A stretch of 64,000 nt of DNA, from contig OZ024741.1 of NCBI GenBank assembly GCA_964016885.1, forward strand, positions 370,884,001 to 370,948,000, read 5' to 3'. Source of the DNA: Eledone cirrhosa (lineage: Eukaryota). The notes under the pieces are model-generated. The model made no database searches, was not told where the DNA came from, and saw nothing but the letters and a program-made list of their open reading frames with translations. Made by a program: the position numbers and the translations under genes. Shown here piece by piece: positions 2,293 to 53,787 of this stretch (positions are counted from its first letter, which is position 1; each line of letters opens with the position of its first letter).

Positions 2293-2446
2293 CATCCACA
2301 CCACTAATTTCCTAGCCATTGTCTGGTGAACCAAAAGAAAAAAAAACATGAGACGCTGAAAACTCATCAGAAGTCATCTCTAGAATATTGAATACTCTCC
2401 CCACATCACCACTACATACCAAGTATATAACACAAAACTAATATTC

Positions 2447-5400
2447 ACCTCCACCAACAACACTAACACCAACAACACCAACACCATCAACAACACCAAC
2501 ACCATCAACACCACCAACGACAACACCAACAACACTAACACCACCAACACCTCCAGCAACAACACTAACACCACCAACACCTCCACCAACAACACTAACA
2601 CCACCAACACCTCCACCAACGACACTAACACCACCAACACCACCAACGACAACACTAACACCACCAACACCTCCACCAACAATACTAACACCACCAACAC
2701 CACCAACACCACCAACACCACCAACACCACCAACAACACTAACACCACCAACACCACCACCAACAACACTAACACCACCAACACCACCGAAACCACCAAC
2801 AACACTAACACCACCAACACCACCACAAACAACACTAACACCACCAACACCTCCACCAACAACACTAATACCATCAACACCACCATCAACAACACTAACA
2901 CCACCAATACCACCAACAACAACACTAACACCACCAACACCACCACCAACAACGCTAACACCACCAACACCACCACCAACAACACTAACACCACCAACAC
3001 CTCCACCAACAACACTAAAACCACCAACACCACCACCAACGACACTAAAACCACCAACACCACCACCAGCAACACTAACACCATCAACACCACCATCAAC
3101 AACACTAAAACCACCAACACCACCACCAACAACACTAACACCACCAACACCTCCACCAACAACACTAACACCATCAACACCACCATCAACAACACTAAAA
3201 CCACCAACACCACCACCAACAACACTAATACCATCAACACGACCATCAACAACACTAACACCACCAACACCAACACCAACAACACTAATACCACCAACGC
3301 CACCAACAACACTAACACCACCAACACCACCAACAACAACACTAACACCACCAACACCTCCACCAACAACACTAATACCACCAACACCACCAACACTACT
3401 AACACCACCAACACCACCAACAACAACACTAACACCACCAACACCTCCACCAACAACACTAATACCACCAACACCACCAACGACAAAACTAACACCACCA
3501 ACACAACCAACAACAACACTAACACCACCAACACCACCATCAACAACACTAACACCACCAACACCTCCACCAACAAGACTAACACCACCAACACCTCCAC
3601 CAACAACACTAACACCACCAACACCTCCACCAACAACACTAACACCACCAACACCTCCACCAACAACACTAACAACACAAACACCTCCACCAACAACACT
3701 AACACCACCAACACCTCCACCAACAACACTAAAACCACCAACACCTCCAGCAACAACACTAACACCACCAACACCACCAACAACAACACTAACACCACCA
3801 ACACCACCACCAACAACACTAACACCACCAACACCTCCACCAACAACACTAAAACCACCAACACCTCCAGCAACAACACTAACACCACCAACACCTCCAC
3901 CAACAACACTAATACCACCAACACCACCAACAACACTAATACCACCAATACCACCAACGACAACACTAACACCACCAACACAACCAACAACAACACTAAA
4001 ACCACCAACACCACCATCAACAACACTAACACCACCAACACCTCCACCAACAACACTAACACCACCAACACCTCCACCAACAACACTAACACCACCAACA
4101 CCTCCACCAACAACACTAACACCACCAACACCTCCACCAACAACACTAACACCATCAACACCACCATCAACAACACTAACACCACCAACACCTCCACCAA
4201 CAACACTAACACCACCAATACCACCAACGACAACACTAACACCAACAACACCTCCACCAACAACACTAAAACCACCAACACCACCAACAACAACACTAAT
4301 ACCATCAACACGACCATCAACAACACTAACACCACCAACACCTCCACCAACAACACTAACACCACCAATACCACCAGCGACAACACTAACACAACCAACA
4401 CCACCATCAACAACACTAACACCACCAACACCTCCACCAACAACACTAATACCACCAACGCCACCAACAACACTAACACCACCAACACCACCAACAACAA
4501 CACTAACACCACCAACACCTCCAGCAACAACACTAACACCACCAACACCACCAACAACAACACTAACACCACCAACACCTCCAGCAACAACACTAACACC
4601 ACCAACACCTCCACCAACAACACTAACACCACCAACACCTCCAGCAACAACACTAACACCACCAACACCACCAACAACAACACTAACACCACCAACACCT
4701 CCACCAACAACACTAATACCACCAACACCACCAACACTACTAACACCACCAACACCACCAACAACAACACTAACACCACCAACACCTCCACCAACAACAC
4801 TAATACCACCAACACCACCAACGACAAAACTAACACCACCAACACAACCAACAACAACACTAACACCACCAACACCACCATCAACAACACTAACACCACC
4901 AACACCTCCACCAACAACACTAACACCACCAACACCTCCACCAACAACACTAACGCCACCAACACCTCCACCAACAACACTAACACCACCAACACCTCCA
5001 CCAACAACACTAACACCACAAACACCTCCACCAACAACACTAACACCACCAACACCTCCACCAACAACACTAAAACCACCAACACCTCCAGCAACAACAC
5101 TAACACCACCAACACCACCAACAACAACACTAACACCACCAACACCACCACCAACAACACTAACACCACCAACACCTCCAGCAACAACACTAACACCACC
5201 AACACCACCATCAACAACACTAACACCACCAACATCTCCACCAACAACACTAACACCACCAATACCACCAACGACAACACTAACACCACCAACACCTCCA
5301 CCAACAACATTAAAACCACCAACACCATCACCAACACCACCACCAACAACACTAATACCATCAACACCACCACCAACGACACTAAAACCAGGAACACCTC

Positions 5401-8400
5401 CACCAACAACACTAACACCACCAACACCTCCACCAACAACACTAAAACCACAAACACCACCACCAACGACACTAAAACCACCAAAACCTCCACCAACAAC
5501 ACTAACATCACCAACACCACCAACGACAACACTAACACCACCAACACCTCCACCAACAACACTAACACCATCAACGCCTCCACCAACAACACTAACACAA
5601 CCAACACCTCCACCAACAACACTAACACCACCAACACCTCCACCAACAAAACTAACACCACAAACACCACCACCAATGACACTAAAACCACCAACACCTC
5701 CACCAACAACACTAAAACCACCAAAACCTCCAGCAAAAACACTAACAACACCAACACCACCACCAACGACACTAAAACCACCAACACCTCCACCAACAAC
5801 ACTAACACCACCAACACCTCCACCAACAACACTAACACCACCAACACCTCCACCAACAACACTAAAACCACAAACACCACCACCAACGACACTAAAACCA
5901 CCAAAACCTCCACCAACAGCACTAACACCACCAACACCTCGACCAACAACACTAAAACCACAAACACCACAACCAACGACACTAAAACCACCAACACCTC
6001 CACCAACAACACTAACACCACCAACACCTCCACCAACAACACTAACACCACCAATACCTCCACCAACGACACTAAAACCACCAACACCACCACCAACGAC
6101 ACTAAAACCACCAATACCACCAACAACAACACTAACACCACCAACACCTCCACCAACAACACTAACACCACCAACAGCACCACCAACGACGCTAAAACCA
6201 CCAACACCTCCACCAACAACACTAACACCACCAACACCTCCACCAACAACACTAACACCACCAACAAATCCACCAACAACACTAAAACCACCAACACCTC
6301 CACCAACAACACTAACATCACCAACACCACCAACGACAACACTAACACCACCAACACCTCCACCAACAACACTAACACCATCAACGCCTCCACCAACAAC
6401 ACTAACACAACCAACACCTCCACCAACAACACTAACACCACCAACACCTCCACCAACAACACTAACACCACCAACACCACCAACGACAACACTAACACCA
6501 CCAACACCTCCACCGACAACACTAATACCACCAACATCACCAACGACACTAACACCACCAACACCACCACCAACAAAACTAACACCACCAACACCTCCAG
6601 CAACAACACTAACACCACCAACACCACCAACGACAACACTAACACCACCAACACCACCACCCACAACACTAACACCACAAACACTTCCACCAACAACACT
6701 AACACCATGAACAACTCCACCAACAACACTAACAACACCAACACCACCATCCACAACACTAACACCACAAACACCTCCACCAACAACACTAACACCACCA
6801 ACACCACCACCAACAACACTAACACCACCAACACCACCACCAACAACACTAACACCACCAACACCACCACAAACAACACTAACACCACCAACACCTCCAC
6901 CAACAACACTAACACCACCAACACCTCCACCAACAACACTAACACCACCAACACCACTAACGACAACACTAACACCACCAACACCACCAACGACAACACT
7001 AACACCATCAACGCCTCCACCAACAACACTAACACCACCAACACCTCCACCAACAACACTGAATACCACCAACACCTCCACCAACAACACTAACACCACC
7101 AACACCACCAACGACAACACTAACACCACCAACACCTCCACCAACAACACTAATACCACCAACACCACCAACGACACTAACACCACCAACACCACCACCA
7201 ACAACACTAACACCACCAACACCTCCAGCAACAACACTAACACCACCAACACCACCAACGACAACACTAACACCACCAACAGCTCCAGCAACAACACAAA
7301 CACCACCAACACCTCCAGCAACAACACTAACACCACCAACACCACCACCAACGACACTAAAACCACCAATACCACCAACAACAACACTAACACCACCAAC
7401 ACCTCCACCAACAACACTAACACCACCAACAGCACCACCAACGACGCTAAATCCACCAACACCTCCACCAACAACACTAACACCACCAACACCTCCACCA
7501 ACAACACTAACACCACCAACACATCCACCAACAACACTAAAACCACCAACACCTCCACCAACAACACTAACACCACCAACAACACCACCAACAACAGTAA
7601 CACCACCAACACCACCAACAACACTAACACCACCAACACCTCCACCAACAACACTAACACCACCAACACCACCACCAACAACACTAACATCACCAACACC
7701 ACCAACGACAACACTAACACCACCAACACCTCCACCAACAACACTAACACCATCAACACCTCCACCAACAACACTAACACCACCAACGCCTCGACCAGCA
7801 ACACTAACACCACCAACACCTCCACCAACAACACTAACACCACCAACACCACCAACCACAACACTAACTCCACCAACACCTCCACCAACAACACTAATAC
7901 CACCAACACCACCAACGACACTAACACCACCAACACCACCGCCAACAACACTAACACCACCAACACCTCCAGCAACAACACTAACACGACCAACACCACC
8001 AACGACAACACTAACACCACCAACACCACCACCCACAACACTAACACCACAAACACCTCCACCAACAACACTAACACCATGAACACCTCCACCAACAACA
8101 CTAACACCACCAACACCACCACCAACAACACTAACACCACTAACACCACCACCCACAACACTAACACCACCAACACCACCACAAACAACACTAACACCGC
8201 CAACACCTCCACCAACAACACTAACACCACCAACGACAACACTAACACCACCAACACCTCCACTAACAACACTAACACCACCAACAACTCCACCAACAAC
8301 ACTAACACCACCAACACCACCAACGACAACACTAACACCACCAACACCTCCACCAACAACACTAACACCACCAACACCTCCACCAACAACACTAACACCA

Positions 8401-11400
8401 ACAACACCACTAACAACACCACCACTAACACCACCAACACCACCAACGACAACACTAACACCACCAACACCTCCACCAACAACACTAATACCACCAACAC
8501 CACCACCAACAACACTAACACCACCAACACCACCAACGACACTAAAACCACCAACACCTCCACCAACAACACTAACACCACCAACACCTCCACCAACAAC
8601 ACTAATACCACCAAGACCACCACCAACAACACTAACACCACCAACACCACCAACGACACTAAATCCACCAACACCACCACCAACAACACTAACACCACCA
8701 ACACCACCAACGACACTAAATCCAACAACACCACCACCAACAACACTAACACCACCAACACCACCACCACTAACAACACCAACAACACCACCACCAACAA
8801 CACTAACACCACCATCACCACCAACAACACTAACACCACCAACACCACCACCACTAACAACACCACCAACACCACCACCAACAACACTAACACCACCAAC
8901 ACCTCCACCACTAACAACACCACCAACACCACCACCAACAACACTAACACCACCAACACCACCAACAACACTAACACCACCAACACCACCAACGACACTA
9001 AAACCACCAACACCACCACCAACAACACTAACACCACCAACACCACCAACGACACTAAAACCACCAACACCACCACCAACGACACTAACACCACCAACAC
9101 CACCACCACTAACAACACCACTAACACCACCACCAACAACACTAACACCACCAACACCACCAACGACACTAACACCACCAACACCACCACCACTAACAAC
9201 ACCACCAACACCACCACCAACAACACTAACACCACCAACACCACCAACGACAACACTAACACCACCAACACCACCACCAACAACACTAATACCACCAACA
9301 CCACCACCAACAACACTAACACCACCAACACCACCACCAACAACACTAACCCCACCAACACCTCCACCAACAAAATTAACACCACCAACACCACCACCAA
9401 CAACACTAACACCACCAACACCACCAACAACAAAAATAACACCACCAACACCACCACCAACAACACTAACACCACCTACACCACCAACGACAACACTAAC
9501 ACCACCAACACCACCAACGACAACACTAACACCACCAACACTACCACCAACAACACTAAAACCACCAATACCACCACCCACAACACTAACACCACCAACA
9601 CCTCCACCAACAACACTAACACCACCAACACCACCACCAACAACACTAACACCACCAACACCACCACCCACAACACTAACACCACCAACACCACCAACGA
9701 CAACACTAACACCACCAACACCTCCACCAACAACACTAACACTACCAACACCACCAACGACAACACTAACACCACCAACAGCTCCAGCAACAACACAAAC
9801 ACCACCAACACATCCAGCAACAACACTAACACCACCAACACCACCAACGACAAAACTAACGCCACCAACAGCTCCAGCAACAACACAAACACCACCAACA
9901 CCTCCAGCAACAACACTAACACCACCAACACCACCAACGACAACACTAACACCACCAACACCACCAACGACAACACTAACACCACCAACACCTCCAGCAA
10001 CAACACTAACACCACCAACACCACCAACGACAACACTAACACCACCAACACCTCCACCAACAACACTAACACCACCAACACCTCCAGCACAACACTAACA
10101 CCACCAACACCACCAACGACACTAACACCAGCAACACCACCAACGACAACACTAACACCACCAACGCCTCCACCAACAACACTAATTTCCATCAACACCA
10201 CCATCAACAACACAAACACCACCAACACCTCCACCAAAAGCACTAACACCACCAACAACTCCACCAACAACACTAACACCACCAACACCTCCAGCAACAA
10301 CACTAACACCACCAACACCAACACCCACAACACTAACACAACCAACACCTCCAACAACAACACTAAAATCACCAACACCACCACCAACAACACTAAAACC
10401 ACCAACACCACCACCAACAACACTAACACCACAAACACCTCCACCAACAACACAAACACATCACCACCTCCACTAAAAACACTAACACCACCAACACCTC
10501 CACCAACAACACTAACACCACCAACACCACCAACGACAACACTAACACAACCAACACCTCCACCAACAACACTAATACCACCAACACCACCAACGACACT
10601 AACACCACCAACAACACCACCAATGACACTAAAACCACCAAAACCTCCACCAACAACACTAATATCACCAACACCACCACCAAAGACACTAAAACCACAA
10701 ACACCTCCACCAACAAGACTAATATCACCAACACCTCCACCAACAACACTAACACCACCAACACCACCAACGACACTAAATCCACCAACACCACCACCAA
10801 CAACACTAACACCACCAACACCACCACCACTAACAACACCACCAACACCACCACCAACAACACTAACACCACCATCACCACCAACAACACTAATACCACC
10901 AACACCACCACCACTTACAACACCACCAACACCACCACCAGCAACATTAACACCACCAACACCTCCACCAACAACACTAACACCACCAACACCTCCACCA
11001 CTAACAACACCACCAACACCACCACCAACAACACTAACACCACCAACAACAACACCACTAACAATACCACCAACACCACCACCAACAACACTAACACCAC
11101 CAACACCGCCAACGACACTAAAACCACCAACACCACCACCAACAACACTAACACCACCAACACCACCAACGACACTAAAACCACCAACACCACCACCAAC
11201 GACGCTAACACCACCAACACCACCACCACTAACAACACCACCAACACCATCACCAACAACACTAACACCACCAACCCCACCAACGACACTAACACCACCA
11301 ACACCACCACCACTAACAACACCACCGACACCACCACCAACAACACTTACACCACCAACACCACCAACGACAACACTAACACCACCAACACCACCACCAA

Positions 11401-14400
11401 CAACACTAACACCACCAACACCACCAACGACACTAACACCACCAACACCACCAACACTAACAACACCTCCAAAACCACCACCAACAACACTAAAACCACC
11501 AAAACCACCACCAACAACACTAACACCTCCAACACCACCAACGACACTAAAACCACCAACACCTCCACCAACAACACTAACACCACCAACACCTCCACCA
11601 ACAACACTAATACCACCAACACCACAACCAACAACACTAACACCACCAACACCACCATCACTAACAATACCACCAACACCACCACCAACAACACTAACAC
11701 CACCAACACCACCAACGACACTAAAACCACCAACACCACCACCAACAACACTAACACCACCAACACCACAAACGACACTAAAACCACCAACACCACCACC
11801 AACGACACTAACACCACCAACACTACCACCACTAACAACACCACCAACACCACCACCAACAACACTAACACCACCAACACCACCAACAACAAAAATAACA
11901 CCACCAACACCACCACCAACAACACTAACACCACCTACACCACCAACGACAACACTAACACCACCAACACCACCAACGACAACACTAACACCACCAACAC
12001 CACCACCAACAACACTAACACCACCAATACCACCACCCACAACACTAACACCACCAACACCTCCACCAACAACACTAACACCACCAACACCACCACCCAC
12101 AAAATTAACACCACCAACACCACCAATGACAACACTAACACCACCAACAACACCATCATCAACACTAACACCACCAACACCACCAACAACAAAAATAACA
12201 CCACCAACACCACCACCAACAACACCACCACCCACAACACTAACACCACCAACACCACCAACGACAACACTAACACCACCAACACCTCCACCAACAACAC
12301 TAACACCACCAACACCACCAACGACAACACTAACACCACCAACAACTCCAGCAACAACACAAACACCACCAACACCTCCAGCAACAACACTAACACCACC
12401 AACACCACCAACGACAACACTAACACCACCAACACCACCAACGACAACACTAACACCACCAACACCTCCAGCAACAACACTAACACCACCAACACCACCA
12501 ACGACAACACTAACACCACCAACACCTCCACCAACAACACTAACACCACCAACACCTCCAGCAACAACACTAACACCACCAACACCTCCACCAACAACAC
12601 TAACACCACCAATACCTCCACCAACCACACTAACACCACCAACACCACCAACAACACTAACACCACCACCACTAACTACACCACCAACACCACTACCAAC
12701 AACACTAACACCACCAACACAACCAACGACAACACTAACACCACCAACACCACCACCAACAACACTAACACCACCAACACCACCAACGACACTAACACCA
12801 CCAACACCACCAGCACTAACAACACCTCCAACACCACCACCAACAACACTAACACCACCAACACCACCACCAACAACACTAACACCTCCAACACCACCAA
12901 TGACACTAAAACCACCAACACCTCCACCAACAACACTAACACCACCAACACCTCCACCAACAACACTAATACCACCAACACCACCACCAACAACACTAAC
13001 ACCACCAACACCACCATCACTAACAATACCACCAACACCACCACCAACAACACTAACACCACCAACACCACCAACGACACTAAAACCACCAACACCACCA
13101 CCAACAACACTAACACCACCAACACCACCAACGACACTAAAACCACCACCAACGACACTAACACCACCAACACCACCACCAACAACACTAACACCACCAA
13201 CACCACCAACGACAACACTAACACCACCAACACCACCACCAACAACACTAATACCACCAACACCACCACCAACAACACTAACACCACCAACACCACCACC
13301 AACAACACTAACACCACCAATACCTCCACCAACAAAATTAACACCACCAACACCACCACCCACAACACTAACACCACCAACACCACCACCAACAAAAATA
13401 ACACCACCAACACCACCACCAACAACACTAACACCACCAACACCACCAACGACAACACTAACACCACCAACACCACCAACGACAACACTAACACCACCAA
13501 CATTACCACCACCAACGACACTAACACCACCAACACCACCACCACTAACAACAGCACCAACACCACCACCAACAACACTAACACCACCAACACCACCAAC
13601 GACACTAACACCACCAACACCACCACCACTAACAACAGCACCAACACCACCACCAACAACACTAACACCACCAACACCACCAACGACACTAACACCACCA
13701 ACACCACCACCACTAACAACACCACCAACACCACCACCAACAACACTAACACCACCAACACCACCAACGACAACACTAACACCACCAACACCACCACCAA
13801 CAACACTAATACCACCAACACCACCACCAACAACACTAACACCACCAACACCACCACCAACAACACTAACACCACCAATACCTCCACCAACAAAATTAAC
13901 ACCACCAACACCACCACCCACAACACTAACACCACCAACACCACCACCAACAACACTAACACCACCAACACCACCAACAACAAAAATAACACCACCAACA
14001 CCACCACCAACAACACTAACACCACCTACACCACCAACGACAACACTAACACCACCAACACCACCAACGACAACACTAACACCACCAACACCACCACCAA
14101 CAACACTAACACCACCAATACCACCACCCACAACACTAACACCACCAACACATCCACCAACAACACTAACACCACCAACACCACCACCCACAAAATTAAC
14201 ACCACCAACACCACCAATGACAACACTAACACCACCAACAACACCATCATCAACACTAACACCACCAACACCACCAACAACAAAAATAACACCACCAACA
14301 CCACCACCAACAACACTAACACCACCAACACCACCACCCACAACACTAACACCACCAACACCACCAACGACAACACTAACACCACCAACACCTCCAGCAA

Positions 14401-17400
14401 CAACACTAACACCACCAACACCACCAACGACAACACTAACACCACCAACAACACCAACGACAACACTAACACCACCAACACCTCCAGCAACAACACTAAC
14501 ACCACCAACACCACTAACGACAACACTAACACCACCAACACCTCCACCAACAACACTAACATCACCAACACCTCCAGCAACAACACTAACACCACCAACA
14601 CCACCAACGACACTAACACCACCAACACCACCAACGACAACACTAACACCACCACCGCCTCCACCAACAACACTAATACCATCAACACCACCATCAACAA
14701 CACAAACAACACCAACACCTCCACCAAAAGCACTAACACCACCAACACCTCCACCAACAACACTAACACCACCAACACCTCCAGCATCAACACTAACACC
14801 ACCAACACCTCCAGCAACAACACTAAAATCACCAACACCACCACCAACAACACTAAAACCACCAACACCACCACCAACAACACTAACACCACAAACACCT
14901 CCACCAACAACACAAACACATCACCACCTCCACCAACAACACTAACACCACCAACACCACCAACGACAACACTAACACAACCAACACCTCCACCAACAAC
15001 ACTAACACCACCAACACCTCCACCAACAACACTAACACCACCAATACCTCCACCAACCACACTAACACCACCAACACCACCAACGACACTAAAACCACCA
15101 ACACCACCACCAACAACACTAACACCACCAACACCTCCACCAACAACACTAACACCATCAACACCTCCACCAACAACACTAACACCACCAACGACACTAA
15201 AACCCCCAACACCACCACCAACAACACTAACACCACCAACACCACCAACGACACTAAAACCACCAACACCACCACCAACGACACTAACACCACCAACACC
15301 ACCACCAATAACAACACCACCAACACCACCACCAACAACACTAACACCACCAACACCACCAACGACACTAACACCACCAACACCACCACCACTAACAAGA
15401 CCACCAACACCACCACCAACAACACTAACACCACCAACACCACCAACGACAATACTAACACCACCAACACCACCACCAACAACACTAATACCACCAACAC
15501 CACCACCAACAACACTAACACCACCAACACCACCACCAACAACACTAACACCACCAACACCTCCACCAGCAAAATTAACACCACCAACACCACCACCCAC
15601 AACACTAACACCACCAACACCACCACCAACAACACTAACACCACCAACACCACCAACAACAAAATTAACACCACCAACACCACCACCAACAACACTAACA
15701 CCACCTACACCACCAACGACAACACTAACACCACCATCACCACCAACGACAACACTAACACCACCAACACCACCACCAACAACACTAACACCACCAATAC
15801 CACCACCCACAACACTAACACCACCAACACCTCCACCAACAACACTAACACCACCAACACCACCACCCACAAAATTAACACCACCAACACCACCAACGAC
15901 AACACTAACACCACCAACAACACCAACAACAACACTAACACCACCAACACCACCAACAACAAAAATAACACCACCAACACCACCACCAACAACACTAACA
16001 CCACCAACACCACCACCCACAACACTAACACCACCAACACCACCAACGACAACACTAACACCACCAACACCTCCACCAACAACACTAACACAACCAACAC
16101 CACCAACGACAACACTAACACCACCAACACCTCCACCAACAACACTAACACGACCAACAGCTCCAGCAACAACACAAACACCACCAACACCTCCAGCAAC
16201 AACACTAACACCACCAACACCACCAACGACAACACTAACACCACCAACACCACCAACGACAACACTAACACCACCAACACCTCCAGCAACAACACTAATA
16301 CCATCAACACCACCATCAACAACACTAACACCACCAACACCTCCACCAAAAGCACTAACACCACCAACACCTCCACCAACAACACTAACACCACCAACAC
16401 CTCCAGCAACAACACTAACACCACCAACACCAGCACCCACAACACTAACACCACCAACACCTCCAGCAACAACACTAAAACCACCAACACCATCACCAAC
16501 AACACTAACACCACAAACACCTCCACCAACAACACAAACACATCACCACCTCCACCAACAACACTAACACCACCAACACCTCCACCAACAACACTAACAC
16601 CACCAACACCACCAACGACAACACTAACACCACCAACACCTCCACCAACAACACTAACACCACCAACACTTCCACCAACAACACTAACACCACCAATACC
16701 TCCACCAACAACACTAACACCACCAACACCTCCAGCAACAACACTAACACCACAAACACCACCACCCACAACACTAACAGCACAAACACCTCCACCAACA
16801 ACACTAACACCACCTACACCACCACCAACGACACTAACACCACCAACACCTCCACCAACAACACTAACACCACCAACACCACCAACGACACTAAAACCAC
16901 CAACACCACCATCAACAACACTAACACCACCAACACCTCCACCAACAACACTAACAAAAACACCACCAACGACAACACTAACACCACCAACACCTCCACC
17001 AACAACACAAATACCACCAACACCACCGCCAACAACACTAACACCACCAACACCTCCACCAACAAAACTAACACCACCAACACCACCACCAACAACACTA
17101 ACACCACCAACACCACCAACGACACCAAAACCACCAACACCTCCACCAACAACACTAACACCACCAACACCTCCACCAACAACACTAATACCACCAACAC
17201 CACCACCAACAACACTAACACCACCAACACCACCACCACTAACAATACCACCAACACCACCACCAACAACACTAACACCACCAACACCACCAGCGACACT
17301 AAAACCACCAACACCACAACCAACAACACTAACAGCACCAACACCACCAACGACACTAAAACCACCAACACCATCACCAACGACACTAACACCACCAACA

Positions 17401-25830: not shown

Positions 25831-25949
25831 CCGCCATAAGCCCCCAACAACAACAACAAAAACACCTTCACCACCATAACTAACAATAACAACACCATCA
25901 TTGCTACGACCAACAATAACCTCATCATCCCTACCACCACGACTAACAA

Positions 25950-37900: not shown

Positions 37901-40900
37901 ACCAGCAATAATATCACCACGGCCAGTAACAACACCACCATCATCACCAAACGCACCAATAATATCACCACAGCCAGTAACAACCCCACCATCATCACCA
38001 CAACCAGCAATAATATCACCACGGCCAGTAACAACAGCACCATCATCACCACAACTACCAATAATATCACCACGGCCAGTAACAACACCACCATCATCAT
38101 CACAACCAGCAATAATATCACCACGGCCAGTATCAACAGCACCATCATCACCACAACCAGCAAAAATATCACCACGGCCAGTAACAACACCACCATCATC
38201 ACCACACCCACCAACAATATCACCACAGCCAGTAACAACACCACCATCATCACCACAACCACCAATAATATCACCACGGCCAGTAACAACACCACCATCA
38301 TCACCACAACCAGCAATAATATCACCACGGCCAGTAACAACACCACCATCATCACCACAACCAGCAATAATATCACCACGGCCAGTAACAACACCACCAT
38401 CATCACCACAACCAGCAATAATATCACCACGGCCAGTAACAACACCACCATCATCACCACAACCAGCAATAATATCACCACGGCCAGTAACAACAGCACC
38501 ATCATCACCACAACCAGCAATAATATCACCACGGCCAGTAACAACAGCACCATCATCACCACACACACCAATAATATCATCACGGCCAGTAACAACAGCA
38601 CCATCATCACAACACACACCAATAATATCACCACGGACAGTAACAACACCACCATCATCACCACACACACCAATAATATCACCACGGCCAGTAACATCAC
38701 CACCATCATCACCACAGCCAGCAATAATATCACCACGGCCAGTAACAACACCACCATCATCACCACAGCCAGCAATAATATCACCACGGCCAGTAACAAC
38801 ACCACCATCATCACCACAACCAGCAATAATATCACCACGGCCAGTAACATCACCACCATCATCACCACAGCCAGCAATAATATCACCACAGCCAGTAACA
38901 ACACCACCATCATCACCACAGCCAGCAATAATAACACCACAGCCAGTAGCAACACCACCATCATCACCACAACCAGCAATAATATCACCACAGCCAGTAA
39001 CAACACCACCATCATCACCACAGCCACCAATAATATCACCTCGGCCAGTAACAACACCACCATCATCACCACACACACCAATAATATCACCTCGGCCAGT
39101 AACAACCCCACCATCATCACCACAACCACCAATAATATCACCACGGCCAGTAACAACACCATCATCATCACCACAACCAGCAATAATATCACCACGGCCA
39201 GTAACAACACCACCATCATCACCACAACCAGCAATAATATCACCACGGCCAGTAACAACACCACCATCATCACCACAACCAGCAATAATATCACCACCGT
39301 CAGTAACAACACCACCATCATCACCACAACCAGCAATAATATCACCACGGCCAGTAACAACACCACCATCATCACCACAACCAGCAATAGTATCACCACA
39401 GCCAGTAACAATACCACCATCATCACCACAACCAGCAATAATATCACCACCGTCAGTAACAACACCACCATCACCACCACAACCACCAATAATATCACCA
39501 CAGCCAGTAACAACAGCACCATCATCACCACACACACCAATAATATCACCACATCCACTAACAACACCACCATCATCACCACAACCAGCAATAATATCAC
39601 CACAGCCAGTAACAACACCACCATCATCACCACAACCAGCAATAATATCACCACAGCCAGTAACAACACCACCATCATCACCACAACCACCAATAATATC
39701 ACCACGGCCAGTAACAACACCACCATCATCACCACAAGCAGCAATAATATCACCACGGCCAGTAACAACACCACCATCATCACCACAACCACCAATAATA
39801 TCACCACGGCCAGTAACAACACCACCATCATCACCACAACCAGCAATAATATCACCACAGCCAGTAACAACACCACCATCATCACCACAACCACCAATAA
39901 TATCACCACGGCCAGTAACAACACCACCATCATCACCACAACCACCAATAATATCACCACGGCCAGTAACAACACCACCATCATCACCACAACCAGCAAT
40001 AATATCACCACAGCCAGTAACAACACCACCATCATCACCACAACCAGCAATAATATCACCACGGCCAGTAACAACACCACCATCATCACCACAACCACCA
40101 ATAATATCACCACGGCCAGTAACAACACCACCATCATCACCACAGCCAGCAATAATATCACCACGGCCAGTAACACCACCATCATCACCACACCCACCAA
40201 TAATATCACCACCGTCAGTAACAACACCACCATCATCAACACACCCAGCAATAATATCACCACGGCCAGTAACAACACCACCATCATCACCACACCCAGC
40301 AATAATATCACCTGGGCCAGTAACAACACCACCATCATCACCACACCCACCAATAATATCACCACCGTCAGTAACAACAGCACCATCATCACCAGAACCA
40401 GCAATAATATCACCACGGCCAGTAACAACACCGCCATCATCACCACAACCAGCAATAATATCACCACGGCCACTAACAACACCACCACCATCACCACAAC
40501 CACCAATAATATCACCACGGCCAGTAACAACACCACCATCGTCACCACAACCAGCAATAATATCACCACGGCCCGTAACAACACCACCATCATCACCACA
40601 CCCACCAATAATATCACCAGGGCCAGTAACAACACCACCATCATCACCACAACCAGCAATAATATCACACCGTCAGTAACAACACCACCACCATCACCAC
40701 AACCACCAATAATATCACCACAGCCAGTAACAACACCACCATCATCACCACACCCACCAATAATATCACCAGGGCCAGTAACAACACCACCATCATCACC
40801 ACAACCAGCAATAATATCACACCGTCAGTAACAACACCACCACCATCACCACAACCACCAATAATATTACCACGGCCAGTAACAACACCACCATCATCAC

Positions 40901-43900
40901 CACAGCCACCAATAATATCACCACCGTCAGTAACAACACCAACACCATCACCACAATCACCAATAATATCACCACGGCCCGTAAAAACACCACCATCATC
41001 ACCACACCCACCATTAATATCACCACTGCCGGTAACACCACCACCATCATCACAACAACCAGCAATAATATCACCACGGCCAGTAACAACACCACCATCA
41101 TCACCACACCCACCAATAATATCACCACAGCCATTAACAACACCACCATCATCACCACAACCAGCAATAATATCACACCGTCAGTAACAACACCACCACC
41201 ATCACCACAACCACCAATAATATCACCACGGCCAGTAACAACACCACCATCATCACCACACCCACCAATAATATCACCACAGCCAATAACAACACCACCA
41301 TCATCACAACAACCAGCAATAATATCACTAGGGCCAGTAACAACACCACCATCATCACCACAACCAGCAATAATATCACCACGGCCAGTAACAACAGCAC
41401 CATCATCACCACAACCAGCAATAATATCACCACGGCCAATAACAACACCACCATCATCACCACAACCAGCAATAATATCACCACGGCCTGTAACAACAGC
41501 GCATTCATCACCACACCCACCAATAATATCACCACAGCCGGTAACAAGACCACCATCATCACCACAACCAGCAATAATATCATCACGGCCAGTAACAACA
41601 CCACCATCATCACCACAACCAGCAATAATATCACCACGGCCAGTAACAACACCACCATCATCACCACAACCAGCAATAATATCACCACGGCCAGTAACAA
41701 CAGCACCATCATCACCACAACCATCAATAATATCACCACGGCCAATAACAACACCACCATCATCACCACAGCCAGCAATAATATCACCACGGCCAGTAAC
41801 AACACCACCATCATCACCTCAACCAGCAATAATATCACCACGGCCAGTAACAACAGCACCATCATCACCACACACACCAATAATATCACCTCGGCCAGTA
41901 ACAACACCACCATCATCACCACAACCAGCAATAATATCACCACAGCCAGTAACAACACCACCATCATCACCACAACCAGCAATAATATCACCACAGCCAG
42001 TAACAACACCACCATCATCACCACAACCACCAATAATACCACCACAGCCACTAACAACACCACCATCACCACCACAACCACCAATAATATCACCACAGCC
42101 AGTAACAACAGCACCATCATCACCACAACCAGCAATAATATCACCACGGCCAGTAACAACACCACCATCATCACCACAACCAGCAATAATATCACCACAG
42201 CCAGTAACAACACCACCATCATCACCACAATCACCAATAATATCACCACGGCCAGTAACAACACCACCATCATCACCACAACCAGCAATAATATCACCAC
42301 AGCCAGTAACAACACCACCATCATCACCACAATCACCAATAATATCACCACGGCCACTAACAACACCACCATCATCACCACAACCAGCAATAATATCACC
42401 ACAGCCAGTAACAACACCACCATCATCACCACAATCACCAATAATATCACCACGGCCAGTAACAACAGCAGCATCACCACCACAACCAGCAATAATATCA
42501 CCACGGCCAGTCACAACACCACCATCATCACCACACCCACCAATAATATCACCACCGTCAGTAACAACACCACCATCATCACCACAACCAGCAATAATAT
42601 CACCAGAGCCAGTAACAACAGCACCATCATCACCACAACCAGCAATAATATCACCACGGCCATTAACAACACCACCATCATCAACACACCCAGCAATAAT
42701 ATCACCACGGCCAGTAACAACACCACCATCATCACCACACCCAGCAATAATATCACCAGGCCAGTAACAACACCACCATCATCACCACAACCAGCAATAA
42801 TATCACCACCGTCAGTAACAACACCACCATCATCACCACAACCAGCAATAATATCACCACAGCCAGTAACAACAGCACCATCATCACCACAACCAGCAAT
42901 AATATCACCACGGCCAGTAACAACACCACCATCATCACCACACCCAGCAATAATATCACCAGGCCAGTAACAACACCACCATCATCACCACAACCAGCAA
43001 TAATATCACCACCGTCAGTAACAACACCACCATCATCACCACAACCAGCAATAATATCACCACGGCCAATAACAACACCACCATCATCACCACAACCAGC
43101 AATAATATCACCACGGCCAGTAACAACAGCGCATTCATCACCACACCCACCAATAATATCACCACAGCCGGTAACAACACCACCATCATCACCACAACCA
43201 GCAATAATATCATCACGGCCAGTAACAACACCACCATCATCACCAAAACCAGCAATAATATCACCACGGCCAGTAACAACACCACCATCATCACCACAGC
43301 CAGCAATAATATCACCACGGCCAGTAACAACAGCACCATCATCACCACAACCAGCAATAATATCACCACGGCCAGTAACAACACCACCATCATCACCACA
43401 GCCAGCAATAATATCACCACGGCCAGTAACAACAGCACCATCATCACCACAACCAGCAATAATATCACCACGGCCAGTAACAACACCACCATCATCACCA
43501 CAGCCAGCAATAATATCACCACGGCCAGTAACAACACCACCATCATCACCACAACCAGCAATAATATCACCACGGCCAATAACAACACCACCATCATCAC
43601 AGCAAGCCAGCAATAATATCACCACGGCCAGTAACAACACCACCATCATCACCACAGCCAGCAATAATATCACCACGGCCAGTAACAACACCACCATCAT
43701 CACCACAACCAGCAATAATATCACCATGGCCAGTAACAACACCACCATCATCACCACAGCCAGCAATAATATCACCACGGCCAGTAACAACACCACCATC
43801 ATCACCACACACACCAATAATATCACCACGGCCAGTAACAACACCACCATCATCACCACAACCAGCAATAATATCACCACGGCCAGTAACAACACCACCA

Positions 43901-46900
43901 TCATCACCACACACACCAATAATATCACCACGGCCAGTAACAACAGCACCATCATCACCACAACCAGCAATAATATCACCTCGGCCAGTAACAACACCAC
44001 CATCATCACCACAACCACCAATAATATCACCACAGCCAGAAACAACACCACCATCATCACCACAACCACGAATAGTATCACCACGGCCAGTAACAACAGC
44101 ACCATCATCACCACACCCAGCAATAATATCACCACACCCACCAATAATATCACCACGGCCAGTAACAACAGCACCATCATCACCACAACCAGCAATAATA
44201 TCACCACGGCCAGTAACAACAGCACCATCATCACCACAACCAGCAATAATATCACCACCGTCAGTAACAACACCACCATCATCACCACAACCAGCAATAA
44301 TATCACCACGGCCAGTAACAACACCACCATCATCACCACAACCAGCAATAATATCACCACAGCCAGTAACAACACCACCATCATCACCACAACCACCAAT
44401 AGTATCACCACAGCCAGTAACAACACCACCATCATCACCACAACCAGCAATAATATCACCACAGCCAGTAACAACAGCACCATCATCACCACAACCACCA
44501 ATAATACCACCACAGCCACTAACAACACCACCATCATCACCACAACCAGCAATAATATCACCACAGCCAGTAACAACACCACCATCATCACCACAATCAC
44601 CAATAATATCACCACGGCCAGTAACAACACCACCATCATCACCACAACCAGCAATAATATCACCACGGCCAGTAACAACACCAGCATCACCACCACAACC
44701 AGCAATAATATCACCACGGCCAGTCACAAACCACCATCATCACCACACCCACCAATAATATCACCACCGTCAGTAACAACACCACCATCATCACCACAAC
44801 CAGCAATAATATCACCACAGCCAGTAACAACACCACCATCATCACCACAACCAGCAATAATATCACCACGGCCAGTAACAACACCACCATCATCAACACA
44901 CCCAGCAATAATATCACCACGGCCAGTAACAACACCAGCATCATCACCACACCCAGCAATAATATCACCAGGCCAGTAACAACACCACCATCATCACCAC
45001 ACCCACCAATAATATAACCACAGCCAGTAACAACACCACCATCATCACCACACCCACCAATAATATCACCACCGTCAGTAACAACACCACCATCATCACC
45101 ACAGCCAGCAATAATATCACCACGGCCAGTAACAACAGCACCATCATTACCACACCCAGCAATAATATCACCACCGCAGTAACAACACCACCATCATCAC
45201 CACAACCAGCAATAATATCACCACGGTCAGTAACAACAGTACCATCATCACCACAACCAGCAATAATATCACCACAGCCAGTAACAACACCACCATCATC
45301 ACCACAACCAGCAATAATATCACCACGGCCAGTAACAACACCACCATCATCACCACACACACCAATAATATCACCTCGGCCAGTAACAACACCACCATCA
45401 TCACCATACCCACCAATAATATCACCACGGCCAGTAACAACACCTCCATCATCACCACAACCAGCAATAATATCACCACGGCCAGTAACAACAGCACCAT
45501 CATCACCAGAACCAGCAATAATATCACCACGGCCAGTAACAACAGCACCATCATCACCACAACCACCAATAATATCACCACAGCCAGTAACAACACCACC
45601 ATCATCACCACAACCAGCAATAATATCAGCACGGCCAGTAACATCACCACCATCATCACCACATCCAGCAATAATATCACCACGGCCAGTAACAACACCA
45701 CCCCGATCACCACAACCAGCAATAATATCACCACGGCCAGTAACAACACCACCCCGATCACCACAACCACCAATAATATCACCACGGCCAGTAACAACAC
45801 CACCATCATCACCACAACCAGCAATAATATCACACCGTCAGTAACAACACCACCACCATCACCACAACCAGCAATAATATCACCACAGCCAGTAACAACA
45901 CCACCATCATCACCACAACCACCAATAATATCACCACGGCCAGTAACAACACCACCATCCTCACCACAACCAGCAATAATATCACCACTGTCATTAACAA
46001 CACCACCATCCTCACCGCAACCAGCAATAATATCACCACGGCCAGTAACAACACCACCATCATCATCACAACCAGCAATAATATCACACCGTCAGTAACA
46101 ACACCGCCATCATCACCACAACCAGCAATAATATCACCACGGCCAGTAACAACACCACCATCATCACCACACCCACCAATAATATCACCACCGTCAGTAA
46201 CAACACCACCACCATCACCACAACCACCAATAATATCACCACGGCCCGTAACAACACCACCATCATCACCACACCCACCATTAATATCACCACAGCCCGT
46301 AACAACACCACCATCATCACAACAACCAGCAATAATATCACCACGGCCAGTAACAACACCACCATCATCACCACACTCACCAATAATATCACCATAGCCA
46401 TTAACAACACCACCATCATCACAACAACCAGCAATAATATCACTACGGCCAGTAACAACACCACCATCATCACCACAACCAGCAATAATATCACCACGGC
46501 CAGTAACAACAGCACCATCATCACCACAACCAGCAATAATATCACCACGGCCAATAACAACACCACCATCATCACCACAACCAGCAATAATATCACCACG
46601 GCCAGTAACAACAGCGCCATCATCACCACACCCACCAATAATATCACCACAGCCGGTAACAACACCACCATCATCACCACAACCAGCAATAATATCACCA
46701 CGGCCAGTAACAACACCACCATCATCACCACAACCAGCAATAATATCACCACGGCCAGTAACAACACCACCATCATCACCACAACCAGCAATAATATCAC
46801 CACGGCCAGTAACAACACCACCATCATCACCACACACACCAATAATATCACCTCGGTCAGTAACAACACCACCATCATCACCACAACCAGCAATAATATC

Positions 46901-49900
46901 ACCACGGCCAGTAACAACCCCACCATCATCACCACAACCACCAATAATATCACCACGGCCAGTAACAACACCACCATCATCACCACAACCACCAATAATA
47001 TCACCACCGTCAGTAACAACAGCACCATCATCACCACAACCAGCAATAATATCACCACGGCCAGTAACAACACCACCATCATCACCACAACCAGCAATAA
47101 TATCACCACGGCCAGTAACAACACCACCATCATCACCACAACCAGCAATAATATCACCACGGCCAGTAACAACACCACCATCATCACCACAACCAGCAAT
47201 AATATCACCACGGCCAGTAACAACACCACCATCATCACCACACCCACCAATAATATCACCACGGCCAGTAACAACACCACCATCATCACCTCAACCAGCA
47301 ATAACATCACCACGGCCAGTAACAACACCACCATCATCACCACAACCAGCAATAATATCACCACGGCCAGTAACAACACCACCATCATCACCACAACCAG
47401 CAATAATATCACCACGGCCAGTAACAACACCACCATCATCACCACACCCACCAATAATATCACCACGGCCAGTAACAACACCACCATCATCACCTCAACC
47501 AGCAATAACATCACCACGGCCAGTAACAACAGCACCATCATCACCACAACCAGCAATAATATCACCACGGCCAGTAACAACAGCACCATCATCACCACAA
47601 CCAGGAATAATATCACCACGGCCAGTAACAACACCACCATCATCACAACACACCAATAATATCACCTCGGTCAGTAACAACACCACCATCATCACCACAA
47701 CCAGCAATAATATCATCACGGCCAGTAACAACACCACCATCATCACCACACACACCAATAATATCACCACGGCCAGTAACAACACCACCATCATCACCAC
47801 ACACACCAATAATATCACCTCGGTCAGTAACAACACCACCATCATCACCACAACCAGCAATAATATCACCACAGCCGGTAACAACACCACCATCATCACC
47901 ACAACCAGCAATAATATCACCACGGCCAGTAACAACACCACCATCATCACCACAACCAGCAATAATATCACCACGGCCAGTAACATCACCACCATCATCA
48001 CCACAGCCAGCAATAATATCACCACGGCCAGTAACAACACCACCATCATCACCACAACCAGCAATAATATCACCACGGCCAGTAACAACACCACCATAAT
48101 CACCACAACCAGCAATAATATCACCACGGCCAGTAACAACAGCACCATCATCACCACAACCAGCAATAATATCACCACGGCCAGTAACAACAGCACCATC
48201 ATCAAAAACACCCACCAATAATATCACCACAGCCAGTAACATCACCACCATCATCACCACAGCCAGCAATAATATAACCACGGCCAGTAACAACACCACC
48301 ATCATCACCACAGCCAGCAATAATATCACCACGGCCAGTAACAACAGCACCATCATCACCACACCCAGCAATAATATCACCACCGTCAGTAACAACACCA
48401 CCATCATCACCACAACCAGCAATAATATCACCACTGTCAGTAACAACAGCACCATCATCACCACAACCAGCAATAATATCACCACGGCCAGTAACAACAG
48501 CACCATCATCACCAGAACCAGCAATAATATCACCACGGCCAGTAACAACAGCACCATCATCACCAGAACCAGCAATAATATCACCACGGCCAGTATCAAC
48601 AGCACCATCATCACCAGAACCAGCAATAATATCACCACCGTCAGTAACAACACCACCATCATCACCACAACCAGCAATAATATCACCACGGTCAGTAACA
48701 ACAGCACCATCATCACCACAACCAGCAATAATATCACCACGGCCAGTAACATCACCACCATCATCACCACATCCAGCAATAATATCACCACGGCCAGTAA
48801 CAACACCACCCCGATCACCACAACCACCAATAATATCACCACGGCCAGTAACAACAGCACCATCATCACCACAACCAGCAATAATATAACTACCGCCAGT
48901 AACAACACCACCATCATCACCACAACCAGCAATAATATCACCACGGCCAGTAACAACACCACCATCATCACCACAACCAGCAATAATATCACCACGGCCA
49001 GTACCAACACCACCATCATCACCGCAACCAGCAATAATATCACCACGGCCAGTAACAACACCACCATCATCACCACAACCAGCAATAATATCACACCGTC
49101 AGTAACAACACCACCACCATCACCACAACCAGCAATAATATCACCACGGCCAGTAACAACACCACCATCATCACCACACCCACCAATAATATCACCACCG
49201 TCAGTAACAACACCACCACCATCACCACAACCACCAATAATATCACCACGGCCCGTAACAACACCACCATCATCACCACACCCACCATTAATATCACCAC
49301 AGCCAGTAACAACACCACCATCATCACCACAGCCACCATTAATATCACCACGGCCTGTATCAACAGCACCATCATCACAACAACCAGCAATAATATCACC
49401 ACGGCCAGTAACAACACCACCATCATCACCACAACCAGCAATAATATCACCACGGTCAGTAACAACAGTACCATCATCACCACACCCACCAATAATATCA
49501 CCACACCCACCAATAATATCACTACACCCACCAATAATATCACCACAGCCAGTAACAACACCACCATCATCACCACAACCAGCAATAATATCACCACGGC
49601 CAGTATCAACAGCACCATCATCACCACAACCAGCAATAATATCACCACGGCCAGTAACAACACCACCATCATCACCACACCCACCAATAATATCACCACA
49701 GCCAGTAACAACACCACCATCATCACCACAACCAGCAATAATATCACCACGGCCAGTAACAACACCACCATCATCACCACAACTACCAATAATATCACCA
49801 CGGCCAGTAACAACACCACCATCATCACCACAACCAGCAATAATATCACCACGGCCAGTATCAACAGCACCATCATCACCACAACCAGCAATAATATCAC

Positions 49901-50390
49901 CACGGCCAGTAACAACACCACCATCATCACCACACCCACCAATAATATCACCACAGCCAGTAACAACACCACCATCATCACCACAACCAGCAATAATATC
50001 ACCACGGCCAGTAACAACAGCACCATCATCACCACAACCAGCAATAATATCACCACGGCCAGTAACAACAGCACCATCATCACCACACACACCAATAATA
50101 TCACCACGGCCAGTAACAACACCACCATCATCACCTCAACCAGCAATAATATCACCACGGCCAGTAACAACACCACCATCATCACCACACACACCAATAA
50201 TATCACCACAGCCAGTAACAACAGCACCATCATCACCACAACCAGCAATAATATCACCACGGCCAGTAACAACAGCACCATCATCACCTCAACCAGCAAT
50301 AATATCACCACGGCCAGTAACAACAGCACCATCATCACCACACACACCAATAATATCACCACAGCCAGTAACAACAGCACCACCACCACT
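25950..50390. repeat. Tandem array 2: 51-bp unit aataatatcaccacggccagtaacaacaccaccatcatcaccacaaccagc, with occasional 21-bp short units
   Basis: Visible 51-bp periodicity over ~24.4 kb (roughly 480 units). Reads NNITTASNNTTIITTTS or IISPRPVTTPPSSPQPA on the + strand; the third frame is closed. Confidence 0.97.
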
Positions 50391-50931
50391 AACAGCAGCC
50401 ATCAATCACTATGACCACCCCAGTCACAACCAAAACCCCACTGAAAGCATGAACATTTCTTTCTGTAAAATAAGGAACAACAAACTTCAGCTACACAATT
50501 TGCAATGAAAGCCTTGCCAAGAAGTTGCCACATGTAATCTACAACTACGCTTTCTCCTTTCTGTTGGGGAAACGCCTTCTCCATTCTGTCCATCGGGGTT
50601 GTGGGGAGGCCAAGCTGTGGGTTTCCATTTGCTCACCATACAGAGAGATGGGGAGAGCGAGAGAGATGGAGGCGATGACAGAGAGAGTTGGGCTCTTCTA
50701 CGTTCGGACCATATCCTTGTAGTTGTGTTTATCATATATATAGAAAATCTACTATTTTCTGAAATTCCGGTAAGTCTCTTTATTTACCTGTTATAATTCA
50801 TTTATTGTTAATTTCTGTTGTTGTGAAAGGGACATAAGCCCTTGGACTTTGCCCTGTGAAGGGGAAACTATGTTATTTGGGCCTTTTGGCCCTTATGTTT
50901 GAACTTTGTTTAAAACAAATTTTTTTTACAC

Positions 50932-52471: not shown

Positions 52472-52477
52472 AGCTTT

Positions 52478-52539
52478 CCTCTCTCTCTCTCTTTCTCCCC
52501 CTCTCTCTCTCTCTCTCCCTCTCCCTCTTTCTCTCTCTT
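52478..52539. repeat. (CT)-rich polypyrimidine tract between LINE ORF1 and ORF2
   Basis: Imperfect (CT)n run directly visible. Confidence 0.9.
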
Positions 52540-52550
52540 AGCCTGCCACC

Positions 52551-53695: not shown

Positions 53696-53787
53696 TTTGA
53701 TTTTGGAATCGATAATTCTTCAGACTTTGGGATTTTCTTTGTCTCCCCATTATATATAAATGAAAAACCTATAATAAATACATATAA

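What the first reader, a model, noticed from the sequence alone, without database searches (positions are those of the whole stretch)
2384..50414. 48-kb bipartite array readable as two different glycoprotein-like polymers in overlapping + frames
Seen: both sub-arrays leave the same two + frames largely open and close the third in nearly every unit. One frame gives (TTNTSTNNTN)n then (NNITTASNNTTIITTTS)n, with about 3 N-X-S/T sequons per unit. The other gives (PPTPPPTTLT)n then (IISPRPVTTPPSSPQPA)n, like a mucin PTS domain. The Pro frame has point stops (TGA 6708, 8080, 32999; TAA 25837, 26900, 28908, 29133, 32897, 45015, 48275, 48887). I saw no substitution stops in the Asn frame. In array 1 the commonest variants (CCA/CCT, ACA/ACG, CCA/CCC) are silent in the Pro frame; in array 2 the common ACG/ACA variant is silent in the Asn frame. 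Inference: this is either a giant (~16,000-codon) mucus/adhesive glycoprotein exon, its decaying relic, or a trinucleotide-derived satellite mimicking one. Caveat: AAC/ACC/ATC codons are at least two substitutions from a stop, so an open Asn frame is expected even without selection.
Basis: partly seen in the sequence, partly recalled or inferred. Interest (0 to 1): 0.75.

Follow-up and report, generated by a model that had tools for sequence, protein, structure and literature searches.

The report
Satellite DNA mimicking a mucin exon
This 48-kb run of two back-to-back DNA repeats reads like a sugar-coated mucus protein because its ACC/AAC/ATC triplets spell such amino acids, but it slips out of frame 26 times while two likely mucin-coding repeats in the same genome stay in frame, so it is likely ordinary non-coding satellite DNA.

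Summary
The two arrays are real: about 792 30-bp units, then about 484 51-bp units, both unique to this locus. The two polymers and all 11 listed stops are also real. The longest stop-free stretch is 3,124 codons, not about 16,000. Some frameshifts were copied along with the array (x4, x8, x3).

The Asn and Pro readings follow from the triplet alphabet: shuffled triplets give them, and 14 of 16 nearby A/C-rich arrays have two open frames. In the same assembly, two likely mucin exons (128.8 kb and about 82 kb, the latter equally A/C-rich) stay in frame. A sister satellite of at least 173 kb slips at our rate. No mucin domain was found in the flanks; the nearest gene found is cysteine dioxygenase, 154 kb downstream. 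Silent-change tests were blank in the controls too, and no RNA could be tested.

Verdict: likely a non-coding minisatellite (0.85); relic exon about 0.10. The scan reached this verdict before for another array in this genome (e1-10318175, unchecked).

The parts
2384..2445 (+). Degenerate lead-in. The Asn-register frame opens right after a TAG whose AG could serve as a weak splice acceptor (two other AGs lie 10-13 nt upstream; the pyrimidine tract is short).
2446..25800 (+). Array 1: 30-bp unit of ACC/AAC triplets with one ACT, 792 units, 93% A+C, about 91% unit-to-unit identity, with kb-scale internal block duplications. Net frameshifts at 7061, 10088, 10186, 10458, 14918, 16540, 19302 and 24991-24998; four of them are copies of one 1-bp deletion. 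Pro-register stops at 6708 and 8080.
25801..25960 (+). Degenerate linker with precursor-like forms of the array-2 unit. The Asn register changes frame here; TAA at 25837.
25961..50385 (+). Array 2: 51-bp unit (17 triplets, 16 beginning with A), 484 units, 80% A+C, about 93% unit-to-unit identity. 18 net frameshifts (9 distinct; one 1-bp deletion in 8 copies, another in 3). 11 Pro-register stops.
50386..50460 (+). Degenerate tail. No GTAAG/GTGAG donor in 50,300-50,700 and no AATAAA/ATTAAA in 50,400-51,000.
50500..53700 (.). High-copy dispersed repeats directly downstream. 52,560-53,695 is 67-78% alike to LINE-type elements nearby (inferred to be a decayed LINE).
60370..64000 (+). Unrelated 70-bp minisatellite that runs on about 12.3 kb beyond the window; context showing that local array growth is common here.

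Best explanation
The 48-kb block is likely a non-coding, single-locus pair of minisatellite arrays, likely grown by repeated unequal exchange from two neighbouring pieces of one degenerate ACC/AAC/ATC triplet tract, and it carries 26 frameshifts, some copied along with the array.

SHOWN: (1) The triplet alphabet (over 90% of triplets start with A) spells N/T/I/S in one register and T/P/S/A in the next. Sequon-rich and PTS-rich readings therefore come free, and stops in the Asn register are two or more changes away. (2) Variants, including frameshifts, sit in several copies within kb-scale duplicated blocks. (3) No reading frame runs through the block.

INFERRED: (4) Growth by slippage (3-nt steps in array 1), unequal exchange and gene conversion. 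(5) Array 1 and array 2 were seeded separately on either side of the linker. (6) The block is not translated and has no sequence-specific function; at most it acts as a spacer or chromatin element 154 kb upstream of a cysteine dioxygenase gene.
For: Frameshifts: 26 net (14 distinct) in 47.8 kb, plus one at the junction. The controls show no register change in a 42,948-codon frame beside a NIDO exon (G000:C6) or in 3,003 units of an equally A/C-rich (TTTTTLP)n/(TTTEPTLP)n array beside another NIDO exon (G000:C8); binomial P about 1e-10 for 14 in 47.8 kb versus 0 in 199.9 kb. A sister A/C-triplet array of at least 173 kb at C2:10.40-10.57 Mb gives the same two polymers and has 113 non-triplet spacings (0.65/kb, against 0.54/kb here).

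Frameshifts spread by descent: 4, 8 and 3 copies with shared flanks. The x8 deletion is linked to a second variant (5 of 8 versus 2 of 30 units, Fisher p = 0.002). Pro-register stops in array 2 are not depleted (rare variants 21 observed versus 18.4 expected).

Composition explains the readings: triplet shuffles keep both polymers and both open frames. 14 of 16 A/C-rich triplet arrays in 800 kb of flank have two frames at least half open, including one lying antisense between two exons of the cysteine dioxygenase gene.

No mucin context: 663 flank ORF scans gave only transposon domains, cysteine dioxygenase and sub-threshold hits. No NIDO, VWA or VWD match lies near the locus. Unlike the C8 control, there is no complex coding lead-in and no canonical donor. 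No homologue was found beyond one low-complexity hit that carries a Peptidase_S74 domain.
Against: Expression was not tested. The frameshifts and the junction were not checked against independent reads, and 11 of the 14 distinct shifts are single copies. Substitution tests (silent excess, T/S and sequon retention) are blank in the likely coding controls too, so they say nothing here. The first 4.6 kb is shift-free in the Asn frame and opens behind a possible weak acceptor. The C8 control uses the same A/C codon style, so real octopod mucin exons can look just like this. The controls are themselves inferred to be coding, not shown expressed. Exons under 38 codons, minus-strand ORFs under 75 aa and domain-free exons would have escaped the flank scan; the first 75-aa screen did miss cysteine dioxygenase exon 1. 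Four of six other satellites had no 1-2-bp indel in 3.7-8.9 kb, so neutral indel rates vary widely.
Confidence: 0.85

Rival explanations
1. Relic: the block was once a coding mucin-like exon (Pro register, as in the C8 gene, or Asn register). The gene lost function, and the repeat went on turning over and collecting frameshifts and stops.
For: Giant A/C-rich mucin-like frames exist in this genome. Two different repeat blocks in series resemble the multi-block build of the C6 frame. The degenerate ends read as Thr-rich text.
Against: No relic NIDO, VWD or VWA exon or other domain was found between the array and the next gene. There is no complex lead-in and no donor. The register breaks at the junction, and frameshifts were amplified across 9-12 kb, so much of the growth happened without frame constraint. 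Arrays of the same make are common nearby on both strands.
Confidence: 0.1
2. Live but short: only the first 4.7 kb (2,384-7,093) is a terminal exon encoding a 1,569-residue Asn/Thr-rich N-glycosylated tail, and the rest is 3' UTR or downstream DNA.
For: The Asn frame opens directly after a TAG/AG and has no shift until 7,061. An earlier unchecked note reports a repeat tail as a terminal exon elsewhere in this genome (e1-8668265).
Against: The acceptor is poor. Shift-free runs of 4.5-6.4 kb also occur later in the array, so 4.6 kb is unremarkable. The units before and after 7,061 are of the same kind. No upstream exon was found among + strand ORFs of 38 aa or more within 160 kb.
Confidence: 0.04
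3. An intact giant exon of about 16,000 codons, whose frameshifts are assembly errors.
For: Long-read consensus errors do cause frameshifts in mucin repeats (PMC9712336, passages read). Many shifts are 1-bp changes in short runs.
Against: The same assembly holds 128.8-kb and about 40-kb repeat frames without a break, one of the same composition. Shifted units share linked variants. The Pro register also has 14 point stops. No flanking gene was found.
Confidence: 0.01

Closest known systems
Single-locus minisatellite / VNTR arrays shaped by slippage, unequal crossing over and gene conversion (review PMC8122249; passages read)
   Same: Short tandem unit, one locus, each sub-array 23-24 kb (the review gives 0.5-30 kb as the mean range), homogenised units, and longer units built by merging short motifs.
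   Different: Two arrays abut to give 48 kb, with extreme strand asymmetry. Length polymorphism was not tested.
Mucin PTS-domain exons (MUC2/5AC/5B/6, MUC4-type; PMC1552070 and PMC9712336, passages read), and the NIDO-linked giant frames at G000:C6 and C8
   Same: PTS-rich tandem translation (PTS 0.85 and 0.64 in the Pro register) and very large size; the C8 frame uses the same A/C codon style and also has a largely open by-product Asn frame.
   Different: No continuous frame, 14 stops in the Pro register, no VWD/NIDO/VWA partner, and no lead-in or donor. PMC1552070 itself notes that PTS content alone gives false positives.
Orphan mucins arising by gain of T/S-rich exonic repeats (PMC9417175; passages read)
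   Same: Domain-free repeat mucins exist, so the lack of a Pfam domain does not by itself exclude a mucin.
   Different: Those repeats sit in-frame in a secreted proline-rich host gene and retain T/S. Here no host gene was found, and the T/S test was uninformative.
Candida glabrata megasatellites (PMC2566889; search listing and start of abstract only)
   Same: Giant minisatellites.
   Different: By the title, those lie in cell-adhesion genes; this array is out of frame and outside any gene found.

Membership tests
Mucin (PTS-domain glycoprotein gene) | Tandem repeat rich in Pro/Thr/Ser | tested here: met
   PTS 0.85 and 0.64 in the Pro register, but the same in shuffled triplets
Mucin (PTS-domain glycoprotein gene) | Repeat encoded in a continuous reading frame (one large exon) | tested here: not met
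   26 shifts plus the junction; longest frame 3,124 codons; controls unbroken
Mucin (PTS-domain glycoprotein gene) | VWD, SEA or NIDO (or VWA) domain exons in the same gene | tested here: not met
   No NIDO match on C2 (12 matches); nearest VWD about 26 Mb away (72 matches); no VWA near (150 of 236 candidates scored); flank ORF scans blank. The SEA search rang nowhere, controls included, so it is uninformative
Mucin (PTS-domain glycoprotein gene) | Signal-peptide exon and splice sites bounding the repeat | tested here: inconclusive
   Weak possible acceptor at 2,382-2,383 and no canonical donor; a short signal exon would not be seen by Pfam
Mucin (PTS-domain glycoprotein gene) | Selection to keep T/S, sequons or silent changes | tested here: inconclusive
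   No signal here, and none in the likely coding controls either
Mucin (PTS-domain glycoprotein gene) | Transcription, translation and glycosylation | not testable with these tools
   No RNA run was available
Single-locus minisatellite array | Head-to-tail units of tens of bases over kilobases | tested here: met
   30-bp x 792 and 51-bp x 484
Single-locus minisatellite array | Unit confined to one locus | tested here: met
   100 of 100, 115 of 115 and 222 of 222 genome-wide exact matches lie in the window
Single-locus minisatellite array | Turnover that spreads variants among units regardless of frame | tested here: met
   Block duplications with offsets of 1.3-3.0 kb; frameshift variants in 4, 8 and 3 copies; identity flat with distance
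Single-locus minisatellite array | Copy-number polymorphism between individuals | not testable with these tools
   One assembly; no long reads of other individuals
Macrosatellite (D4Z4/DXZ4 type) | Unit of kilobase length | tested here: not met
   Units of 30 and 51 bp; definition from PMC8122249

The most novel reading that the evidence does not exclude
A/C-triplet satellites are the raw material of this genome's giant mucin exons. The same ACC/AAC alphabet builds frame-broken satellites (this one, and the array of at least 173 kb at C2:10.4 Mb) and an unbroken ~28,000-codon mucin-like frame (C8). This array would then be one end of a satellite-to-mucin continuum, either a dead mucin exon or a ready-made one awaiting capture by splice sites.
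Probability: 0.15. Interest if true: 0.55.

Novelty: new member of a known kind. Interest (0 to 1): 0.12.

Why it matters
As a satellite it matters little: one more large local array in a repeat-rich genome. Its practical use is as a negative control. This genome holds giant repeat frames that are likely real mucin exons, and this case shows how to tell the two apart. Frame continuity, flanking domains and splice sites discriminate; open frames, PTS content, sequon density and silent-site counts do not. If the relic or raw-material reading were true, it would tie microsatellite growth to the birth and death of giant mucin exons, which would be testable by comparing species.

Tried and rejected
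RNA: no RNA holder was listed. This is no evidence either way. Runs X1-X3 behave like genomic DNA (exact pieces of the flank at depth about 2-9, repeats at depth in the thousands), and no joint with splice-site ends was among the 15 shown of 58.

Synonymous-excess, T/S-retention and sequon-retention permutation tests: dropped as evidence because nine likely coding control blocks (seven in C6, two in C8) gave no significant silent excess in their coding frame either, and the two C8 blocks no significant T/S retention. A few nominal p < 0.05 values fell in the stop-filled third register, in the C8 Asn frame and in the sister satellite; with this many tests I treat them as noise.

Overlapping two-frame coding (two polymers from one DNA): rejected, because composition alone gives both, and the likely coding C8 array also has an open by-product frame (up to 3,271 codons).

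Array as an intron of cysteine dioxygenase: its coding exons begin 154 kb downstream; a 5' UTR intron is not excluded.

Protein search with 300 aa of the Asn frame: one 33%-identical low-complexity hit among 7,977 candidates scored, of one length class only. Pfam on five array translations: blank. Sub-threshold flank hits (Zip, Na/K-ATPase beta, HTH_23, DUF1453, Adhesin_P1_N) were not pursued. The SEA search was uninformative. A G-quadruplex or TGG-repeat mechanism: one listing only, not followed up. The look-up of earlier findings near this place was empty, and the one by sequence was irrelevant.

Literature: searches listed no paper describing such arrays or giant repeat exons in octopods. 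Most subscription journals are not in the library, and no supplements were read. Structure prediction was not run (low-complexity repeat).
Full report
OBSERVATION. The window (G000:C2:370,884,001-370,948,000) holds two abutting arrays: 792 units of 30 bp at 2,446-25,800 and 484 units of 51 bp at 25,961-50,385, joined by about 160 bp of degenerate sequence. The genome looks octopod; that label is my recall plus unchecked notes, not a test made here. Relative to the unit, the Asn and Pro readings, the closed third register and about 3 sequons per unit are as described, and all 11 listed stops are there. Three more Pro-register stops lie at 27284, 46395 and 48097.

WHAT WAS MISSED. The register shifts 8 times in array 1, 18 times in array 2 and once at the junction. 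Each absolute + frame has 368-849 stops across the finding. The longest stop-free stretch is 3,124 codons, and the minus strand reaches 2,496. Read from the 5' end, the Asn frame stops after 1,569 codons and the Pro frame after 1,422. The 26 shifts are 14 distinct events. Three were amplified to 4, 8 and 3 copies with shared flanks. The 8-copy deletion travels with a second variant (5 of 8 versus 2 of 30 units, p = 0.002). That points to descent rather than random error, although no independent reads confirm it.

WHY IT READS LIKE TWO GLYCOPROTEINS. Over 90% of triplets in the Asn register start with A, and 62-78% are A-n-C. Such triplets spell N/T/I/S; shifted by one base they spell T/P/S/A. 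No single change to either consensus makes a stop in the Asn register (0 stop sites). Shuffled triplets keep the composition and both open frames. Real sequon density is above the shuffles (26.7 versus 20 and 16.9 versus 11 per 100 aa), but this reflects one unit order per array, and a random order reaches three sequons with P = 0.60 and 0.39. In 800 kb of flank, 14 of 16 A/C-rich triplet arrays of 600 bp or more have two frames at least half open, on both strands. One lies antisense between exons of the cysteine dioxygenase gene. Another gives the same Asn-open, Pro-open, third-closed pattern over 3.5 kb.

CONTROLS IN THE SAME ASSEMBLY. Earlier notes claimed real giant mucin exons in this genome, so I looked for them upstream of NIDO exons (eight NIDO loci sampled, two had such frames). 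At C6 there is one 42,948-codon frame. At C8 there is an A/C-rich 21/24-bp array that is stop-free for 13,886 and 14,251 codons either side of a 200-N gap, with a complex lead-in and a GTAAGT donor. Neither shows a register change among aligned units. An anchor count found 2 non-triplet spacings in 38.8 kb of C8 that do not close its frame. Fourteen distinct shifts in 47.8 kb against none in 199.9 kb gives P about 1e-10. These controls are inferred to be coding; their expression is not shown. A sister array of at least 173 kb at C2:10.4 Mb, found through the 23-nt core of array 1 (121 of 345 matches lie outside the window), gives the same polymers and slips 0.65 times per kb, against 0.54 here. 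Six other satellites had 0-4.2 1-2-bp indels per kb, four of them none, so neutral rates vary.

SELECTION TESTS. Permuting variant counts among sites of the same base change showed no silent excess in the Asn or Pro frame of either array. Array 2's Pro-frame stops matched expectation (rare variants 21 versus 18.4). The same silent-excess test was blank in all nine coding-control blocks, and T/S retention was blank in the two C8 blocks.

SURROUNDINGS. I fetched 400 kb on each side. Pfam scans covered: 213 locally unique ORFs plus 19 others, of 832 at 75 aa or more within 200 kb; 148 of 156 and 133 of 133 + strand ORFs of 38-74 aa, from 160 kb upstream to just past the start of the next gene; and 150 of 178 ORFs of 62 aa or more beyond 200 kb. 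Hits were transposon domains, cysteine dioxygenase (first coding exon 154 kb downstream) and a few sub-threshold matches. Genome-wide, NIDO has no match on C2, the nearest VWD is about 26 Mb away, no scored VWA match is near, and the SEA search was uninformative. The 5' edge offers only a weak acceptor, and the 3' edge has no canonical donor or poly(A) signal. Full units are unique to the locus: 100 of 100, 115 of 115 and 222 of 222 exact matches. About 26% of the flanks is tandem repeat, with other 9-16-kb minisatellites close by.

MECHANISM. Shown: triplet-built units, 3-nt slippage in array 1 (115 events), block duplications with offsets of 1.3-3.0 kb, and variants shared across many kb, with unit identity flat with distance. 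Inferred: two neighbouring pieces of one degenerate triplet tract were each amplified by unequal exchange and conversion, the usual drivers of satellite turnover (PMC8122249, passages), with no constraint on frame. Confidence 0.85. A relic exon (0.10), a short live terminal exon (0.04) and an intact exon with assembly errors (0.01) remain.

COMPARISON AND NOVELTY. It meets the tested features of a single-locus minisatellite. It fails two defining features of a mucin gene: a continuous frame and partner domains (PMC1552070 and PMC9712336, passages). Domain-free mucins exist but need an in-frame secreted host gene (PMC9417175, passages). Four literature searches listed nothing on such octopod arrays; the library lacks most subscription journals, and no supplements were read. 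The scan noted a similar mimic elsewhere in this genome (e1-10318175, unchecked). Verdict: a new member of a known kind, interest 0.12. The boldest reading left open is that such satellites feed, or derive from, the genome's giant mucin exons (probability 0.15, interest 0.55 if true). Expression remains untested.

Noticed in passing
G000:C8:46,257,360-46,339,554 (-); L056, L057, L074-L080: About 82 kb of A/C-rich 21/24-bp repeat reading (TTTTTLP)n/(TTTEPTLP)n as two stop-free frames of 13,886 and 14,251 codons that meet at a 200-N gap. It has a complex ~250-aa lead-in, a GTAAGT donor at its end and a NIDO exon 2.6 kb downstream. Likely a ~28,000-codon mucin exon; more interesting than the present finding.
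   Followed up: partly
G000:C6:95,772,487-95,901,330 (+); L044, L045, L061-L073: One 42,948-codon stop-free frame made of many different repeat blocks, upstream of a NIDO exon. It matches the size in note e1-9545403.
   Followed up: partly
G000:C2:<=10,400,018-10,572,917 (-); L121-L138: Sister A/C-triplet satellite of at least 173 kb (45-bp unit) with all three registers open and 113 non-triplet spacings; its far end was not reached.
   Followed up: partly
G000:C2:371,088,470-371,197,372 (+); L035, L105: Cysteine dioxygenase gene in three Pfam-matched exons, with a 103-kb gap between the first two.
   Followed up: partly
window 60,370-64,000 plus L021-L022; L020:4765-6300: A 16-kb 70-bp minisatellite. 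An inverted partial copy with 535 bp of flank (94.6% identical) lies about 4-5 kb upstream of the window, so the 48-kb array is bracketed by an inverted duplication; further inverted pieces match at 82-92%.
   Followed up: partly
L114:5404-8846 (-): A 3.5-kb array with the same behaviour in miniature: Asn frame open for 1,147 codons, Pro frame for 1,048, third frame closed by TAA.
   Followed up: yes
G000:C107:10,301-152,123: Dozens of near-identical VWA exons at regular spacings of about 1.6 and 2.8-3.2 kb, a tandemly amplified VWA cassette.
   Followed up: no
L013:4401-7685, L040:3038-7000, L016:3211-6858, L024:4864-6858, L030, L038, L110: Long ORFs with reverse transcriptase and endonuclease or GIY-YIG domains, Helitron/PIF1 pieces, and a 1,216-aa ORF in L016 with no Pfam match.
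   Followed up: no
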